Shown piece by piece: positions 4,510-58,089 of a stretch of 64,000 nucleotides of DNA; the first letter of the stretch is position 1; each line of letters begins with the position of its first letter. The translations under genes were made by a program, and so were the position numbers. The DNA comes from Mobula hypostoma. Lineage: Eukaryota. The DNA lies in NCBI RefSeq assembly GCF_963921235.1, contig NC_086097.1, positions 139,750,001 through 139,814,000 of the forward strand, in the 5' to 3' direction. The notes under the pieces were generated by a model. The model ran no database searches, had not been told where the DNA came from, and saw nothing but the letters and a program-made list of their open reading frames with translations.

Positions 4510-4900
4510 TACAAGGATCGCTGTCGCAGGAAAGCAGCATCAAGGACCCCAACATCCAGGCCGTACCTCTCTCCTCACTGCTGCCATCAGGAAGCCGGCA
4601 CCGGGGCCTTAGGATGAACACCACCAGGTTCAGGAACAGTTACTACCTCTCCACTCTGAAGCAGAGGGGATAACTTCACTCACCCCAACACGAGCAGATT
4701 CCACAACCCAGGAACTTGCTTTAACGAGCTCTGCTCTTCGTGTCCTCGATATTTGTTGCTTATTTATTTATTATTTTTTTTATATAATTGCACAATTTGT
4801 TGTCTTTTGCACTTTGGTACTTCGTCCGTCTCTGTCGTGTGCGATTTTTCATTTATTCTATTATGTTTATTTCTAATTACTACGAATGCCCGCAAGAATG
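4510..4900 (+). mobile_element. Rex1/Babar-type LINE 3' fragment in TBX20 intron 5
   Basis: aaagcagcatc...ctgccatcagg...caggttcaggaacagttactacc, matching the 3' end of the copy at 33700-33840. Confidence 0.7.
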
Positions 4901-5149
4901 TTCCAGTGGCCGCTGCCCAGGCAGCCATACCTGTGACCTCTACCCCAGTCTCCCGCACCGGTGACCTCTGCCCGGTTACCTTTCTGTCATTGACCTCTGC
5001 CCCCGTGACCTCTATTCTGATCATCTGAATTTGTTATACGTACAGCGACCTCGGGCTAATTGCAACGTGGCGCCCAGGCGGACGGACCTCAGCAACGGCG
5101 GCGGCTGCGGATCTGAGCCGATGGTCTGTGGCGGGGCAGCGGGACTCAC

Positions 5150-5308
5150 CAGTTGATTCTGGTAGGCGGTCACTGCAGTGAAAACAGTCTCCGGGAAGAT
5201 GAAGGTGCGGAATTCCTCAGATTTGAGGTTGACCAGAGAAGCGGTGTGGTCTTTCTTCCTGATAATGTGAACCCGGGGCTGGTACTTATGCATGGAGTTC
5301 AGAATTAT
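5150..5308 (-). CDS. TBX20: TBX20 coding exon 5 (T-box)
   Basis: [53 protein letters not shown]; cccacag| acceptor, CTG|GTGAGT donor; 159 nt. Confidence 0.97.
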
Positions 5309-6143
5309 CTGTGGGACGAATTGACCTCCGTTAGCTATGGTAGTGCCGGCTCCCTCCCGAGTCCGATCTCCACCCCACCCCAGCAGCCTGATCCCAGCCC
5401 GGGTGGTAATGGCATGGGACTGGACGGAGAGGGTGAGGACATGGGCCCGGTCAAAGTGGCAATGAACAGGAGGCTGGTCATCTCCGGCTGCTTCCCAAAA
5501 TTACCCCTAACTCCAATCTCACGCAATGCTGTTAGCTACATGGAACTACGTGGGGGGGGGGGGGGCACGGGATTCTGACAACAAACTCAGGAAAGTGGCA
5601 AGACCTCGGTGATAAAAACAGCTCTTCAGACAGCAGACTGCTCCAAACCGGCTGAAATCCGTGCCGTTGATAACCTTTGGCATGTTCCATTTTAATGATA
5701 ATTTAATTAGAAGCGATAGAGGAAATTCACACGTTTCCAAATTACACACAACGATTTTACCCTGGTTGACCTGTAGACACACACGGGTGTACACATATAT
5801 AGACCTGTATATACACATCTGTACAGATATGCACACCTGTGCATACACAGCTGTAGACACACAGCGGTACATATAGACACTTAAAGATAAGCATCGGTAC
5901 ACACATCTCCTCATTCACTACTGCACAAACCCATGCCAGTATAGTTAGGAGGTGAGAGGAGGTATTTCAGTTAAGAGGATGTCAAGGGCTGTCTACCTGT
6001 CCGTGACCTTAGAGCGGGTTCAGGACTGAGTAAGGATGCGGGAGGAAGCTGAGAATTAGCCAGTGCAGCCGCATGAACGAACTGGGGGGCGGGGGGGGGG
6101 GAGAATCGCTGGCTGTGGCTCCTGATACAGGAATGGGAGGGCT

Positions 6144-49739: not shown

Positions 49740-52200
49740 GGATTATGGTGGGACAGGAGTGTGGATTATGGTGGGACAGGAGTGTGGGTTATGGTGGGTC
49801 AGGGGTGTGGATTATGGTGGGTCAGTAGTGTGGATTATGGTGGGTCAGGGGTGTGGATTATGGTGGGTCAGGTGTGTGGATTATGGTGGGTCAGGGGTGT
49901 GGATTATGGTGGGTCAGGGGTGTGGATTGTGGTGGGTCAGGTGTGTGGATTATGGTGGGTCAGGGGAGTGGATTATGGTGGATCAGTAGTGTGGATTATG
50001 GTGGGTCAGTGGTGTGGATTATGGTGGGTCAGGGGAGTGGATTATGGTGGGTCAGGGGTGTGGATTATGGTGGGTCAATAGTGTGGATTATGGTGGGACA
50101 ATGGTGTGGATTATGGTGGGACAATGGTGTGGATTATGGTGGGTCAGGGGAGTGGATTATGGTGGGTCAGTAGTGTGGATTATGGTGGGTCAGTGGTGTG
50201 GATTATGGTGGGTCAAAAGTGTGGATTGTGGTGGGTCAAGTGTGTGGATTATGGTGGGTCAATGGTGTGGATTATGGTTGTTCAATGGTGTGGATTATGG
50301 TGGGTCAGGGGAGTGGATTATGGTGGGACAGGGGTGTGGGTTATGGTGGGTCAGGGGTGTGGATTATGTTGGGACAGGAGTGTGGGTTATGGTGGGTCAG
50401 GGGTGTGGATTATGGTGGGCCAATGGTGTGGATTATGGTGGGACAGGAGTGTGGATTTTGTTGGGTCAGGGGTGTGGATTGTGGTGGGTCAGGGCTGTGG
50501 ATTGTGGTGGGTCAAGTGTGGATTATGGTGGGACAGGTGTGTGGATTATGGTGGGTCAGGGGTGTGGATTATGGTGGGTCAGGTGTGTGGATTGTGGTGG
50601 GTCAAGTGTGTGGATTATGGTGGGTCAGGGGTGTGGATTATGGTGGGTCAGGTGTGTGGATTATGGTGGGTCAGTAGTGTGGATTATGGTGGGTCAGGTG
50701 TGTGGATTGTGGTGGGTCAAGTGTGTGGATTATGGTGGGTCAGGGGTGTGGATTATGGTGGGTCAGTAGTGTGGATTATGGTGGGTCAGTAGTGTGGATT
50801 ATGGTGGGTCAGGGGAGTGGATTATGGTGGGTCAGGGGTATGGATTGTGGTGGGTCAAGTGTGTGGATTATGATGGGTCAGTGGTGTGGATTATGGTGGG
50901 ACAATGGTGTGGATTATGGTTGTTCAATGGTGTGGATTATGGTGGGTCAGGGGTGTGGATTATGGTGGGTCAGGGGTGTGGATTATGGTGGGTCAGGGGT
51001 TTGGATTGTGGTGGGTCAATGGTGTGGATTATGATGGGTCAGGGGAGTGGATTATGGTGGGACAGGAGTGTGGGTTATGGTGGGTCAGGGGTGTGGATTA
51101 TGTTGAGACAGGAGTGTGGGTTATGGTGGGTCAGGGGTGTGGATTATGGTGGGCCAATGGTGTGGATTATGGTGGGACAAGAGTGTGGATTATGTTGGGT
51201 CAGGGGTGTGGATTGTGGTGGGTCAGGGCTGTGGATGGTGGTGGGTCAAGTGTGTGGATTATGGTGGGACAGGAGTGTGGATTATGGTGGGTCAGGGGTG
51301 TGGATTATGGTGGGTCAGTAGTGTGGATTATGGTGGGTCAGGGGTGTGGATTATGGTGGGTCAGGTGTGTGGATTGTGGTGGGTCAAGTGTGTGGATTAT
51401 GGTGGGACAGGAGTGTGGATTATGGTGGGACAGGAGTGTGGGTTATGGTGGGACAGGAGTGTGGGTTATGGTGGGTCAGGGGTGTGGATTATGGTGGGTC
51501 AGTAGTGTGGATTATGGTGGGTCAGGTGTGTGGATTATGGTGGGTCAGTAGTGTGGATTATGCTGGGTCAGGGGAGTGGATTATGGTGGGTCAGGGGTGT
51601 GGATTATGGTGGGTCAGGGGAGTGGATTATGATGGATCAGTAGTGTGGATTATGGTGGGTCAGTGGTGTGGATTATGGTGGGTCAGGGGAGTGGATTATG
51701 GTGGGTCATGGGAGTGGATTATGGTGGGTCAGGTGTGTGGATTATGGTGGGACAATGGTGTGGATTATGGTGGGTCAGGGGAGTGGATTATGGTGGGTCA
51801 GTAGTGTGGATTATGGTGGGTCAGTGGTGTGGATTATGGTGGGTCAAAAGTGTGGATTGTGGTGGGTCAAGTGTGTGGATTATGGTGGGTCAATGGTGTG
51901 GATTATGGTGGGTCAGGGGAGTGGATTATGGTGGGACAGCAGTGTGAGTTATAGTGGGTCAGGGGTGTGGATTATGTTGGGATAGGAGTGTGGGTTATGG
52001 TAGGCCAATGGTGTGGATTATGGTGGGACAGGAGTGTGGATTATGTTGGGTCAGGGGTGTGGATTATGGTGGGACAGGAGTGTGGATTATGGTGGGTTAG
52101 GGGTGTGGATTATGGTGGGACAGGGGAGTGGATTATGGTGGGACAGTAGTGTGGGTTATAGTGGGACAGTGGTGTGGATTATGTGGGACAGGGTTGTGGA
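49740..52200. repeat. 23-bp G-rich minisatellite, roughly 100+ copies, with degenerate flanks at 47040-47330, 49350-49740 and 52200-52460
   Basis: Unit gtggattatggtgggtcaggggt with variants. Confidence 0.97.
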
Positions 52201-54027: not shown

Positions 54028-56119
54028 GTGCAGGAGAACACTTGGCATCTGGCGATCATAATGCCGGTAGTTTTAAGGCAATTACGGAAAAGAATAGGTC
54101 TGGTCCTAGGGTCGAGATTCTAAATTGGAGAAAGGCCAATTTTGATGGTATCTGGCAAGTGTGGATTGGGACAGGTTGTTTTCTGGCAAAGGTGTACTTG
54201 GTAAGTGAGAGGCCTTCAGAAGTGAAAGTTTGAGAGTACAGAGTTCGTATGTTCCTATCAGAATAAAAGGCAAGGAAAATGGGTTTAGGGAACCTTGGTT
54301 TTCAAGAGATATTGAGACCCGGGTTAAGAAAAAGAGGTGCAGAACAGGTATAGACAGGCAGGAACAAATGGGGTACTTAAGAAATGAAGGAGAATACCTA
54401 AGAAGGAAATCAGGAGGGCTAAAAGAAGGTGTGGGGTTGCTCCAGCAGACAAGGTGAAGCAGGATCCGAAGAGCTTCTGCAGATACCTACGTTAAGAGAA
54501 AAAGGATAGCAAGGGACAAAATTGGTCTTCTGGAAGATCAGAGTGGTAATCTATGCGTGGAGCCGAAAGATATGGGGAGGATTTTAAATGGATTGTTTGC
54601 ATCTGCATTTACTCAGGAGATGGACACAAAGTCTATAGAAGTGAGGCAACACAGCAGCGAGGTCATGGACCCAATACAGAGGAGGAGGTGTTTGCTGTCT
54701 TGAGGCAATTTAGGGTGGATAAGTCAATCCCCAGAGCCTGTGGGAAATAGTGCAGAAATTGCAGAGGCCCTAGAGGAGATACTTAAAGTATCTTTAGCCA
54801 CGGATGAGGTGCTGGAGGACTTGAGGATGTTGTGTATTTAAGATTTCAATAATATTTGAATGACTTTGCATATATATTGTTTGATTAAGGATTCTTGTTT
54901 GTTTAAATCATTCATTATTAGTTATATGTAAAAAATCTTTAATTACCTACATTATCATGCTAGCATGTGATACATTCGCTCCTCACTTAAAGTAAACTCA
55001 AAGTCAGACCTGCCTTTCAGAATCCTGTGTCTTCTTTTGAACTAGTTTAATGTTTTGAAAAACAAAACATAATTTTAAAATTGAACCTGAGATGGCTACT
55101 GATCCTTTCAAGTGCAACAAGAAGTTCAAACTAAAGGAAAACAGAGTGAGTGATAAATGCAGCCCTGCATGTACAAAAGCATTGAGTTAAGAAAATGCTG
55201 TAAACAGAAGAATTCAGGGTTTATAAAGAGTGAGTACCAGTGATAATAATAATAAAAAAAGAGCAGAAATGTCTGGCTGCATCAGAAAAATTGATGAGTT
55301 TGCTTCCACAACGGGTAATTGGCTCCTGTATATTGAGCTATTGGAACAGTATTTTGAAGCAAACGAAATAGCCAATGAAAGGCGAGTACCAATTTTGCTA
55401 AGTGCATTGGGTTTAAAGGCATACAGTTTGAAGTTTGACTGCTCCAACCATACCATCCGAAATTAGCTTTGCTGCTATTGTCAAAGTAATGTAGGAACAC
55501 TTAGAACCAAAGCTATTCTTGACTGCAGAACACTCTAGGTTTCATAAACAGAATCAAAAAGGAGAGTCCATTTCGGTGTACATGGCTGAATTGAAGAGGT
55601 TGTCTGAGCATTGTCATTTTGGTAATGGGCTTAATGAGACACTGAGAGATCATTTAGTTTCCAGGATCTTAAAAGAAAGCATTCGAAAATGGCTCCTATC
55701 TGAAGCATAGCTTACATTCAAATGAGCAGGGGAAATCGCTATTTCAATGTAAACCACAGTGTTGCAGTCAGGAATGAAAGAGCATGAACAAAATTACAGC
55801 TTCTGAACAGAAACCAGCCTCACTGAACAAATTGTGTTACTCTTGTGGCAGGTGCCCTCGTTCACCAATCAAATGCAGATTTAAACATGAAATTTGCAAA
55901 AAAAAAAGCAACAAAATAGAACACATGCAAAGAGCATGTTGGGTAGACAAAGACAAATGGAGTGCTCAGGGAAGAGAAAAAGCTTAAATGCCAAGTTGCA
56001 GTTTTAAAAAGAGCACTAATCTGCACACGGTTGATGAAAAAATCTGATAACGGTGAGAATAATGCAAGACTATGTAGCCTTGAGGTTTACAGTGTGAAAC
56101 GTAACAATAGACAAGCGTA

Positions 56120-56336
56120 AACAACAGGAATACTGCAGATGCTGGAAATTCAAGCAACACACATAAAAGTTGCTGGTGAACACAGCAGGCCAGGCAGCAT
56201 CTCTAGGAAGAGGTGCAGTCGACGTTTCAGGGCGAGACCCTTCGTCAGGAAGGGTCTCGCCCTGAAACGTCGACTGCACCTCTTCCTAGAGATGCTGCCT
56301 GGCCTGCTGCGTTCACCAGCAACTTTTATGTGTGTT
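56120..56336. mobile_element. Palindromic Penelope-derived insertion with 14-bp TSD and hammerhead-ribozyme motif
   Basis: aatagacaagcgta at 56106-56119 and 56337-56350; near-perfect inverted arms; minus strand CTGACGA-AGGG-TCTCG-CCCT-GAA-ACGT-C-GACTG. Confidence 0.85.
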
Positions 56337-56774
56337 AATAGACAAGCGTAGTGGTTTACACCAGAAGTGTACGGCAAATTAAGTAAAATGGAATTGGACA
56401 CTAGCTCAGCTGTTTTAGTCGTTCCACAAAATAAGTTTGAGAGGCATTTCAAAGATACTGAACTGAAGTCTGCAGATATCCAACGAAGAATATATACTGA
56501 CAAAAAGATAACTCCTGTGGGAATGACATTGGTAACAGTGAAATATAACAATCAATAAGCCACATTGGAATTGTATGTGGTAAAAACAGAAGGACCAGCA
56601 TTGTGGCATGTGATTAGTTGAGACAACGGCAATTTGATTGGCGATCCATCTATCAATTGCATGCCATATTCCCTGCAATGAAGTCAACTGAAGGTGAATT
56701 GAGAAAGGTACTGGATGATGCTGCAACCATCTCCACGCTGTACACCATGGACCATTACCCAACAGAGAACAAAC

Positions 56775-57375
56775 AGGTGTTGGTGCCAACTTCTGCGTCT
56801 CTGGTTGGAAAGCATCTTGGACCAAAGAAGGACCATGATGTTCAAAGGAGTTGCAGAAGTGATGAAAGCTGTGGTCCGACGACAACAGTTTTTGTAGGCA
56901 ACGTATTTGAGAAAGCTTTTGATATGTTAATCAGCCAGTTCCTTTCAAAATGTGGCTTGGTTTTAAAATGGAAGAGAGTTCAAAGTCCTTCAGGAAAGCT
57001 GCAAGCATTCAGCTTTTGTGAGTACGTATTAAGAACCAGAATCTTGTAAAAGTAGATGTAAAGATGCACAGCTGGATGAATGGATGGCCAAAAAGAAATA
57101 AGTCAATAGAACAAAGAAAACAGAAGATTTGTCAGATGATATTGTGGATGAGGAAACCAAGAGGAGAGATCAAATCTAAAAGGGAGCAATGGGAGGATTA
57201 AAAAGAGAATACTGCAGTAAGCTAAATAGACCTTCCCAAGATCAAGATGCACACACTGGATGAAGAACAGAGAGGGAAGAGATGGAGAGAAAGAATGTGA
57301 ATGAGAAAGAGAATGGTGCGAAGGAGAAAAGGAACATGAGAAAGAAAAAGGGATCGAATTAGATCCAGAGAAAGA
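56775..57375 (+). pseudogene. RBM25: Processed RBM25 fragment captured inside the LTR element
   Basis: VLVPT..VGKHLGPKKDH..CGPTTTVFVGNVFEKAFDMLISQFLSKCGLVLKWKRVQSPSGKLQAFSFCEY, then shifted-frame EPES, LVKVD, QLDEWMAKKK, DEETKRRDQ, KGAM..REYCSKLN and an R/E-rich tract; frameshifts, stops and deletions; no introns. Confidence 0.88.
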
Positions 57376-58089
57376 AAAGATGAAGAAAGGTGTCCAGAGC
57401 TGGCAGAACTGCTTACTGCAATCTCAGAACCAACTACTACAACTATGGAGGAGGCCCCAGAACCTGAGATTGTCTTCACAGCCACAAATCTCATCTGTCA
57501 AGCAGTCTGATCCCACAAGAGGAAGAAATCCTCCACAGCAATTAAATCTTTCAGCCTGAATGGGACAATTTAAAATTTACTATGCTACTCTATATATATA
57601 TATATAGTAGTTGTACTATGCAGTCTACTATATATAATTGGGATGTATTCTCTATTCAGTTGAATTTATAGTTAAGCAGGGAGGAGTGTTGTGTATTTAA
57701 TATTTCAATAATATCTGAGTGATCTAGTATACATATTTTTGATTAAGCATTCTTGTTTATTTTAATAATTCATTTTGGGCTATATGCAAAAATACGTTAA
57801 TTGAATATGTCATCACGCTACCACATCATACATGTGCGCCTCACTTAAAATAAACTTGAAGTTAAACTTGTATGTTGGACTCCCATGTCTCCTTTTGAAT
57901 AAGTCTAATGTTTTGAAGTACAAAACATAATAGAGAATAGCTAATGTTTTTTCCATTATTTAAGAAAGGCTCTAAGAATAATCCAAGATATTTTAGGCTG
58001 GTGAGCCTGACGTCAGCAGTGGGGAAGTTATTGGAAGGTGTTCTAAGAGACCAGATATATAAGTATTTGAATAGACAGGGACTAATTAG

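What the first reader, a model, noticed from the sequence alone, without database searches (positions are those of the whole stretch)
54828..57932. LTR retrotransposon that swapped its pol core for a host splicing-factor (RBM25) cDNA fragment
Seen: two ~245-bp LTRs, a PPT, a TSD, and gag/Zn-knuckle/protease remnants. At about 56775-57375 sits an intronless stretch matching the RBM25 RRM and downstream R/E-rich region, followed by what looks like the element's own pol C-terminal tail (PTRGRNPPQQLNL) and the 3' LTR. Established knowledge: RBM25 is a multi-exon, U1 snRNP/Luc7-associated splicing regulator, and retroviral-style transduction captures spliced host mRNA by template switching. Inference: the fragment is co-oriented with gag and sits exactly where RT/RNaseH/integrase are missing, with no poly(A) tail or own TSD. 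That points to capture and amplification as cargo rather than a later retrocopy insertion. A mobile family spreading an RNA-binding RRM, possibly once fused to Gag-Pro, would be unusual. This copy is pseudogenised.
Basis: partly seen in the sequence, partly recalled or inferred. Interest (0 to 1): 0.88.

Follow-up and report, generated by a model that had tools for sequence, protein, structure and literature searches.

The report
Retrotransposon family carrying captured RBM25 fragment
In a cartilaginous-fish genome, a jumping gene long ago swapped its copying enzymes for a spliced piece of the host's RBM25 splicing-factor message and then spread to well over a thousand places; every copy examined is dead, so this is a known kind of accident at an unusually large scale.

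Summary
Confirmed and extended. Window 54828-57933 is one dead copy of a Ty3/Gypsy derivative whose RT, RNase H and integrase were replaced by spliced host RBM25 mRNA (56719-57389; the end of one exon through the start of the seventh exon after it, parent gene mapped 40 Mb away). Pol-bearing sister copies show both switch points: a 7-nt and a 9-nt word shared by pol and the mRNA. The 5' junction keeps the protease frame. The chimeric junction occurs 1,337 times (control 0), about 2,450 copies by extrapolation, against 2,855 for the pol form. The spread was one old star-like burst (LTR-LTR K2P about 0.25), shared with related organisms. No sign of cargo function: 0 of 77 and 0 of 40 copies are intact, and dN/dS is about 1.1. 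Cargo-free deletions use the same 3' site 364 times. One hint the other way: 6 of 6 shared internal deletions keep the frame (P about 0.02-0.12, post hoc). The mechanism is published (Tan et al. 2016); the copy number far exceeds the LTR cases cited there. The scan already found this family at another locus of this genome (e1-7790852).

The parts
54823..54827 (.). left target-site duplication (GAGGA)
   Evidence: empty-site homologue L011
54828..55072 (+). 5' LTR; its last bases and the primer-binding site are deleted in this copy
   Evidence: sister copies keep ...CA plus a TGG-starting primer site
55269..55990 (+). broken gag (stops, frameshifts); zinc-knuckle region about 55835-55939
   Evidence: translation; zf-CCHC in sister L104; capsid part assigned by position only
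56106..56350 (.). later insertion: head-to-head SINE pair (88-nt arms, 99% complementary) with a 14-bp duplication at 56106-56119 and 56337-56350
   Evidence: absent from sister copies; the SINE label is recalled
56352..56718 (+). aspartyl protease remnant (motif at about 56388-56405) and protease-RT linker
   Evidence: Pfam protease hits in L088 and L046
56719..56725 (+). 5' switch point: 7-nt word shared by pol and the host exon (mutated in this copy)
56719..57389 (+). captured spliced RBM25 mRNA, sense to gag. Exact exon joins at 56728/9, 56776/7, 56947/8, 57005/6, 57110/1 and about 57368/9; 56-nt deletion at 57042/3; one exon and parts of the R/E exon deleted
57380..57388 (+). 3' switch point: 9-nt purine word shared by the host exon and the pol tail
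57390..57562 (+). C-terminal tail of pol (follows integrase in intact sisters)
57674..57686 (+). polypurine tract
57687..57933 (+). 3' LTR
57934..57938 (.). right target-site duplication (GAGAA)

Best explanation
A Ty3/Gypsy virus-like particle packaged a spliced RBM25 mRNA together with element RNA. During reverse transcription the polymerase jumped between the templates twice, at a 9-nt word in the pol tail and a 7-nt word just after the protease, so RT-RNase H-integrase was replaced by about 1.07 kb of mRNA while LTRs, primer site, gag-protease and polypurine tract were kept. The product was a non-autonomous element copied by its pol-bearing sisters in one old burst to roughly 2,000-2,500 copies, shedding its repetitive R/E part by slippage along the way. 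The cargo was most likely a passenger, and all copies have decayed neutrally since. Shown: anatomy, junctions, frame at the 5' junction, copy number, sister elements, neutrality after insertion. Inferred: co-packaging, mobilisation in trans, and passenger status during the active phase.
For: Parent gene mapped exon by exon on G000:C1 about 99.79-99.84 Mb; cargo joins exons without introns. Both junction words are shared by pol-bearing copies and the mRNA; random junction pairs give 7 or more shared bases in 0.064% and 9 or more in 0.007% of 200,000 draws. Junction counts 1,337 chimeric vs 2,855 pol, controls 0; 48 of 88 held carriers fall within the pattern's 3 mismatches. Samples picked outside the cargo: 12 of 30 protease-anchored and 19 of 30 tail-anchored loci carry RBM25, the window included in each. 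Sisters give RVT_1, RNase H and integrase hits (14 of 23 frames hit). Star tree, end branches median 0.11, carriers and pol copies not separable (16 label changes vs 16.4 shuffled). LTR-pair K2P 0.18-0.39 (8 carrier pairs) and 0.17-0.40, median 0.25 (10 of 40 loci had both LTRs). dN/dS of copy-level changes 1.09 overall, 1.05 in the RRM, 1.18 in copies picked outside the cargo. 0 of 77 and 0 of 40 copies have an unbroken cargo frame. Cargo-free integrase deletions land on the same 3' site: 364 matches vs 540 for one RBM25 form and 1,042 intact; 0 of 12 such loci carry RBM25.
Against: The star phylogeny leaves almost no shared substitutions in the cargo (no linked columns), so selection during the active phase is hardly testable; neutrality is shown only for the time after insertion. 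6 of 6 shared internal deletions keep the net frame, against a null of 0.50-0.71 each. The RRM-coding exons are kept in about 80 of 88 copies while the R/E exons are mostly lost. The 19 synonymous, 0 non-synonymous near-fixed differences from today's host (codons 1-192) could not be assigned to host or element branch. The tree's bootstrap had not settled.
Confidence: 0.8

Rival explanations
1. The chimera was translated as a Gag-protease-RRM fusion, and an open frame through the cargo (or the RRM itself, binding RNA in the particle or altering splicing/export of the element RNA) helped the element spread.
For: 5' junction in frame: in 64 of 78 copies the frame upstream of the RBM25 codons is the pol-linker frame, and 4 of 78 natural copies keep the protease motif and the junction in one stop-free frame. 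6 of 6 shared internal deletions keep the net frame, one of them as three frame-shifting steps that sum to a multiple of three. RRM exons retained, repeats lost. No fixed amino-acid change in codons 1-192.
Against: In-frame junctions are common in such chimeras (14 of 17 in-frame with the parent in Drosophila, PMC5131818 passage). Codon-periodic repeats favour in-frame slippage (null 0.50-0.71). All three tail frames stop within about 26-50 codons, so the frame entering the tail matters little. 19 fixed synonymous differences fit host-side change alone (15.1 expected per copy, P 0.19). No database protein covers both protease and RRM (best coverage 45% among 62 hits, near lengths only).
Confidence: 0.14
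2. Camouflage: carrying part of an essential host mRNA made the element costly to silence by small RNAs, or made its transcript look like an ordinary spliced message, so it outran cargo-free derivatives without needing translation.
For: Carriers make up about a third of protease-linked junctions (1,337 of 4,192) from what looks like one capture. The idea is stated for maize elements (PMC13317346, passage citing Muyle et al. 2021).
Against: Cargo-free derivatives reached the same order of copy number (364 vs 540), although these may be many independent deletions. The commonest carriers have deleted much of the cargo. No small-RNA data were examined.
Confidence: 0.05
3. A LINE-made RBM25 processed pseudogene inserted into an existing LTR element, which later lost pol and was amplified.
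For: The genome is rich in LINE-like repeats (flanks).
Against: No poly(A), no duplication at the cargo ends, both ends inside coding exons, and both ends at words shared with pol; the RBM25 C-terminus is found only at the parent gene (3 matches of 12 candidates).
Confidence: 0.01

Closest known systems
LTR-mediated retroposition / chimeric retrocopies in animals (Tan et al. 2016, PMC5131818; abstract, first two of eight text parts and searched passages read)
   Same: Partial spliced mRNA replaces part of the internal ORFs; microsimilarity at both junctions (median 6 bp there, 7 and 9 here); no poly(A) or own duplication; both LTRs kept; sense orientation; secondary retroposition with shared switch points; a preferred return site, as for BLASTOPIA.
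   Different: Their cases are young with one to a few insertion sites; here at least 1,337 junctions and an old, fully decayed burst with deletion subfamilies, in a cartilaginous fish.
Maize Bs1 and human HERV-K/FAM8A1 (seen only as described in PMC5131818 and PMC13317346 passages)
   Same: LTR element with transduced host exons; copies share switch points.
   Different: Bs1 has 1-5 copies and three donor genes; FAM8A1 is given as a single case. Here one donor gene and thousands of copies.
Bat Helitrons amplifying host gene fragments and retrogenes (PMC4224331, passages read)
   Same: A vertebrate transposon carries host gene pieces to high copy number (28-1,381 for most regions, about 4,700-5,500 for promoter/first-exon classes; 118 copies for nested retrogenes).
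   Different: DNA rolling-circle mechanism and mostly unspliced genomic fragments; not RT template switching.
Retroviral oncogene transduction (recalled; mentioned in the introduction of PMC5131818)
   Same: Replication-defective genome with gag fused in frame to a host gene piece, copied by a helper.
   Different: No env, no sign of selection on the cargo, intracellular retrotransposon.

Membership tests
Ty3/Gypsy LTR retrotransposon (non-autonomous derivative) | Two direct LTRs bounded by TG...CA, with a short target-site duplication | tested here: met
   (window 4 of 5 bases; clean 5-bp duplication at L165; the window's terminal CA is mutated, sisters keep it; boundaries were too inexact to read a duplication in most of the other full-length loci)
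Ty3/Gypsy LTR retrotransposon (non-autonomous derivative) | Primer-binding site after the 5' LTR and polypurine tract before the 3' LTR | tested here: met
   PPT in window; TGG-starting site in most sisters with both LTRs, deleted in window. The matching tRNA was not tested.
Ty3/Gypsy LTR retrotransposon (non-autonomous derivative) | pol order protease-RT-RNase H-integrase in the autonomous form, no env | tested here: met
   order read across overlapping sister loci, not in one whole copy; tail, PPT and LTR follow integrase directly
LTR-mediated retrocopy (Tan et al. 2016) | Intronless copy of a multi-exon host gene | tested here: met
   six exact exon joins in the window copy; parent mapped
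LTR-mediated retrocopy (Tan et al. 2016) | Replaces part of the element's internal ORF (flanks discontinuous) | tested here: met
LTR-mediated retrocopy (Tan et al. 2016) | Microsimilarity at the switch points | tested here: met
   7 and 9 nt; chance 0.064% and 0.007%
LTR-mediated retrocopy (Tan et al. 2016) | No poly(A) tail or duplication around the cargo | tested here: met
LTR-mediated retrocopy (Tan et al. 2016) | Co-transcribed with the element | tested here: inconclusive
   one listed contig at 81% identity, depth 6.5, spans the junction in a run only guessed to be RNA
LINE-made processed pseudogene | Poly(A) tail, own duplication, intact 3' end of the mRNA | tested here: not met
Functional retrogene / domesticated element | Intact frame and dN/dS well below 1 | tested here: not met
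   0 of 77 and 0 of 40 intact; dN/dS 1.09. About 125 of some 2,450 copies were examined, so a rare intact copy is not excluded.
Mag lineage of Ty3/Gypsy | RT phylogeny placing it with Mag-clade elements | not tested
   resemblance (single gag-pol frame, two knuckles) is recalled only

The most novel reading that the evidence does not exclude
During its active life the family made a Gag-protease-RBM25(RRM) fusion protein, and keeping that frame open, or the borrowed splicing-factor RRM itself, helped it spread: a retrotransposon that recruited a host RNA-binding domain the way acute retroviruses recruit oncogenes, at a scale of thousands of germline insertions. Not excluded, because the 5' junction is in frame, all six shared deletions keep the frame, the RRM exons are the part retained, and the founder shows no amino-acid change in codons 1-192.
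Probability: 0.17. Interest if true: 0.85.

Novelty: new variant of a known kind. Interest (0 to 1): 0.56.

Why it matters
It shows that LTR-mediated capture of a host mRNA in a vertebrate can found a family of thousands of copies, hundreds of times the copy numbers given for the LTR cases in the papers read. Chimera, helper and parent gene are all still in one genome, so both template switches can be read to the base. The copies also preserve the RBM25 coding sequence as it stood at capture, which gives an internal clock and a direct test of whether cargo ever helps a transposon. Practically, such copies will inflate RBM25 'gene family' counts and could get the real exons repeat-masked.

Tried and rejected
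Solved-structure search gave only weak generic RRM hits (best E 0.013). The PWI family search did not find RBM25 (3 matches, other genes); the parent was found with the C-terminal protein stretch. Heptranchias P0001 as an element-derived protein: rejected, it matches intron-separated exons of the parent gene at 89-100%. Capture by splicing from an element inside an RBM25 intron: rejected, the cargo starts 10 nt inside the upstream exon at a word shared with pol. Subfamily structure or helper-carrier recombination from the protease region: unresolved. Polarising the 19 synonymous differences by base-composition bias: inconclusive. Apparent RRM conservation (0.195 vs 0.241 changes per codon) vanished after correcting for synonymous rates and sampling. 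Two natural copies read open from the cargo into the tail but through different frames, so they do not support one frame. Sequencing runs: no RNA holder listed. Pfam found nothing in 5 flank frames, so the LINE label of the target is recalled. No tRNA gene in the window. Literature: searches listed no paper describing this family (listings only, apart from PMC5131818, PMC13320880, PMC13317346, PMC4224331, read in passages; no supplements were opened, and repeat libraries such as Repbase/Dfam could not be searched, so the family may be catalogued there).

Full report
Observation. The window holds two LTRs at 54828-55074 and 57687-57933 (191 matches, 55 mismatches, K2P 0.27), a polypurine tract, and a 5-bp target duplication with one mismatch. 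The target is itself a repeat: locus L011 aligns across both flanks without the element, and public contigs join 54811 to 57960. Between the LTRs lie a broken gag, a later head-to-head SINE pair with its own 14-bp duplication, a protease remnant, the cargo and a pol tail. The cargo ORF matches RBM25 proteins (E 6.6e-33, 70%, best hit from a shark), so the host is taken to be a cartilaginous fish (inference).

Parent gene and extent of the cargo. The RBM25 C-terminus matches one place only, G000:C1 near 99.8 Mb (3 matches of 12 candidates). Its exons were mapped over 100 kb. The cargo begins with the last 10 nt of one exon, continues through a 48-nt exon that is absent from the amphibian and mammalian proteins retrieved, and ends 28 nt into the seventh exon downstream, about 1.07 kb in the longest form. 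The window copy (56719-57389) keeps six exact exon joins, lacks 56 nt of the RRM and one whole exon. There is no poly(A) and no duplication at the cargo ends.

It is a family with a helper. A DNA search with the cargo gave 2,900 first-look candidates, of which 40 were scored; a protein search gave 56 scored loci. Of the 63 loci examined (60 element loci, 3 parent-gene loci), 53 have the protease region, 46 the tail and 43 an LTR within 1.5 kb. In samples picked on sequence outside the cargo, 12 of 30 (protease anchor) and 19 of 30 (tail anchor) carry RBM25, the window counted in each; the others mostly continue into RT and RNase H or come from integrase (Pfam hits in 14 of 23 frames). A 25-nt pattern across the chimeric 5' junction matches 1,337 places at up to 3 mismatches, the pol form 2,855, reversed controls 0. 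Only 48 of 88 held carriers are within 3 mismatches, which extrapolates to about 2,450 copies; the held copies lean towards better-preserved ones, so this is rough. Of 40 loci fetched at exact junction matches, 38 hold more than 30% of the four core exons, 33 the tail and 10 both LTRs.

Mechanism. Laying carriers, pol copies and the host mRNA side by side shows a 7-nt word shared by pol and the mRNA at the 5' junction and a 9-nt word at the 3' junction; random pairs of positions share that much in 0.064% and 0.007% of 200,000 draws. This is the signature of copy-choice template switching described by Tan et al. (PMC5131818: 25 of 29 junctions, median 6 bp; passage read). The 5' junction keeps the pol frame: 64 of 78 copies, with the protease motif in the same stop-free frame in 4 of 78. 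The 3' site is a hotspot: cargo-free deletions from the integrase zinc-finger region land on it too, 364 matches against 540 for one RBM25 junction form and 1,042 intact, and 0 of 12 such loci carry RBM25. Co-packaging and mobilisation in trans are inferred, not shown.

Age. LTR pairs differ by K2P 0.18-0.39 (8 carriers) and 0.17-0.40, median 0.25 (10 carriers). The protease tree of 66 carriers and 18 pol copies is star-like, end branches median 0.11, labels not clustered (16 changes vs 16.4 shuffled; bootstrap not settled). Copies differ from today's host mRNA by 19 near-fixed synonymous and 0 non-synonymous changes over codons 1-192. The last 7 codons were left out because they border a shared deletion; three frequent non-synonymous differences lie there, and at one of them the window copy reads the same residue as the shark protein P0001, so that change is host-side. 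Each copy has on average 15.1 synonymous changes of its own (P 0.19 for 19), so capture shortly before the burst fits. In another organism (code E) a 427-nt contig spans the left flank and 5' LTR with 53 differences, and many contigs of organisms B and E cover the protease-cargo junction: the insertion and the family predate those splits. No calendar date is given, as no rate was tested.

Function of the cargo. 77 of 88 copies cover at least 85% of the first 199 codons; mean identity to the host is 86.5% and none is free of both stops and frameshifts; likewise 0 of 40 in the second sample. Copy-level dN/dS is 1.09 overall, 1.05 in the RRM, 1.18 in the 22 copies picked outside the cargo and 0.94 in the 29 picked by protein similarity. 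This shows neutral decay after insertion but says little about the active phase, since the cargo has no linked shared variants and the 19 differences could not be polarised. One hint points the other way. Among 82 of 128 copies with both anchors, 40 keep the original net frame between cargo and tail. The six deletion events shared by two or more copies (138, 180, 213, 252, a three-step total of 162, and a further step to a net 450) are all multiples of three. The null for direct-repeat deletions in this codon-periodic stretch is 0.50-0.71, giving P about 0.02-0.12; the test was chosen after seeing the data, the grouping into events is my reading of the alignments, and all three tail frames stop within about 26-50 codons. 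No database protein joins protease and RRM (best coverage 45% among 62 hits of near length). Expression is undetermined.

Comparison and novelty. It works like, and meets the tested features of, an LTR-mediated retrocopy that became a non-autonomous element (PMC5131818). Bs1 has 1-5 copies and FAM8A1 is given as a single case in that paper; bat Helitrons carry gene fragments to hundreds or thousands of copies by a different mechanism (PMC4224331, passages). Eight literature searches listed no description of this family; subscription journals, supplements and repeat libraries were not covered. The scan has noted the same family at another locus (e1-7790852) and a USP35-carrying Gypsy family in this genome (e1-8031028, not tested here); the second, if right, makes capture a recurring event here and weakens any special role for RBM25. 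Verdict: real, precisely explained, known in kind and unusual in scale. Whether the original element encoded one open gag-protease-RBM25 frame from end to end is left open.

Noticed in passing
G000 genome-wide; L080, L098, L099, L105, L119, L128, L135, L137-L148: The pol-tail site used by the RBM25 capture is also the landing site of cargo-free integrase deletions (364 pattern matches), through an imperfect direct repeat; a template-switch hotspot.
   Followed up: partly
window 56106-56350: Head-to-head pair of the same short repeat (88-nt arms, 99% complementary) inserted as one unit with a 14-bp duplication; it would fold into a near-perfect hairpin.
   Followed up: no
G000:C1:99832586-99832633 (L069): 48-nt in-frame RBM25 exon, identical in protein to the shark sequence P0001 over its last 14 residues and absent from the amphibian and mammalian proteins retrieved; the captured mRNA included it, so the isoform is old.
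   Followed up: partly
L041 and L042 (G000:C96, 22.42 and 23.60 Mb): Two copies share about 700 nt at 96-100% but only about 85% over the longer alignment; L041 holds two cargo starts. Recent local conversion or partial duplication.
   Followed up: partly
G000:C1:99876648-99876890 (L074): An LTR of this same family lies about 36 kb upstream of the first coding exon of RBM25, opposite in direction to the gene; probably chance given the family's size.
   Followed up: no
window 50001-52000: Very strong G/T-rich strand skew (GC skew 0.82, AT skew -0.32), likely a simple-repeat array.
   Followed up: no
L031/L032 (G000:C76:29.41 Mb) and L033 (G000:C2:244.68 Mb): Other PWI-domain genes, by recall SRRM1-like and PRPF3-like; not related to the element.
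   Followed up: no
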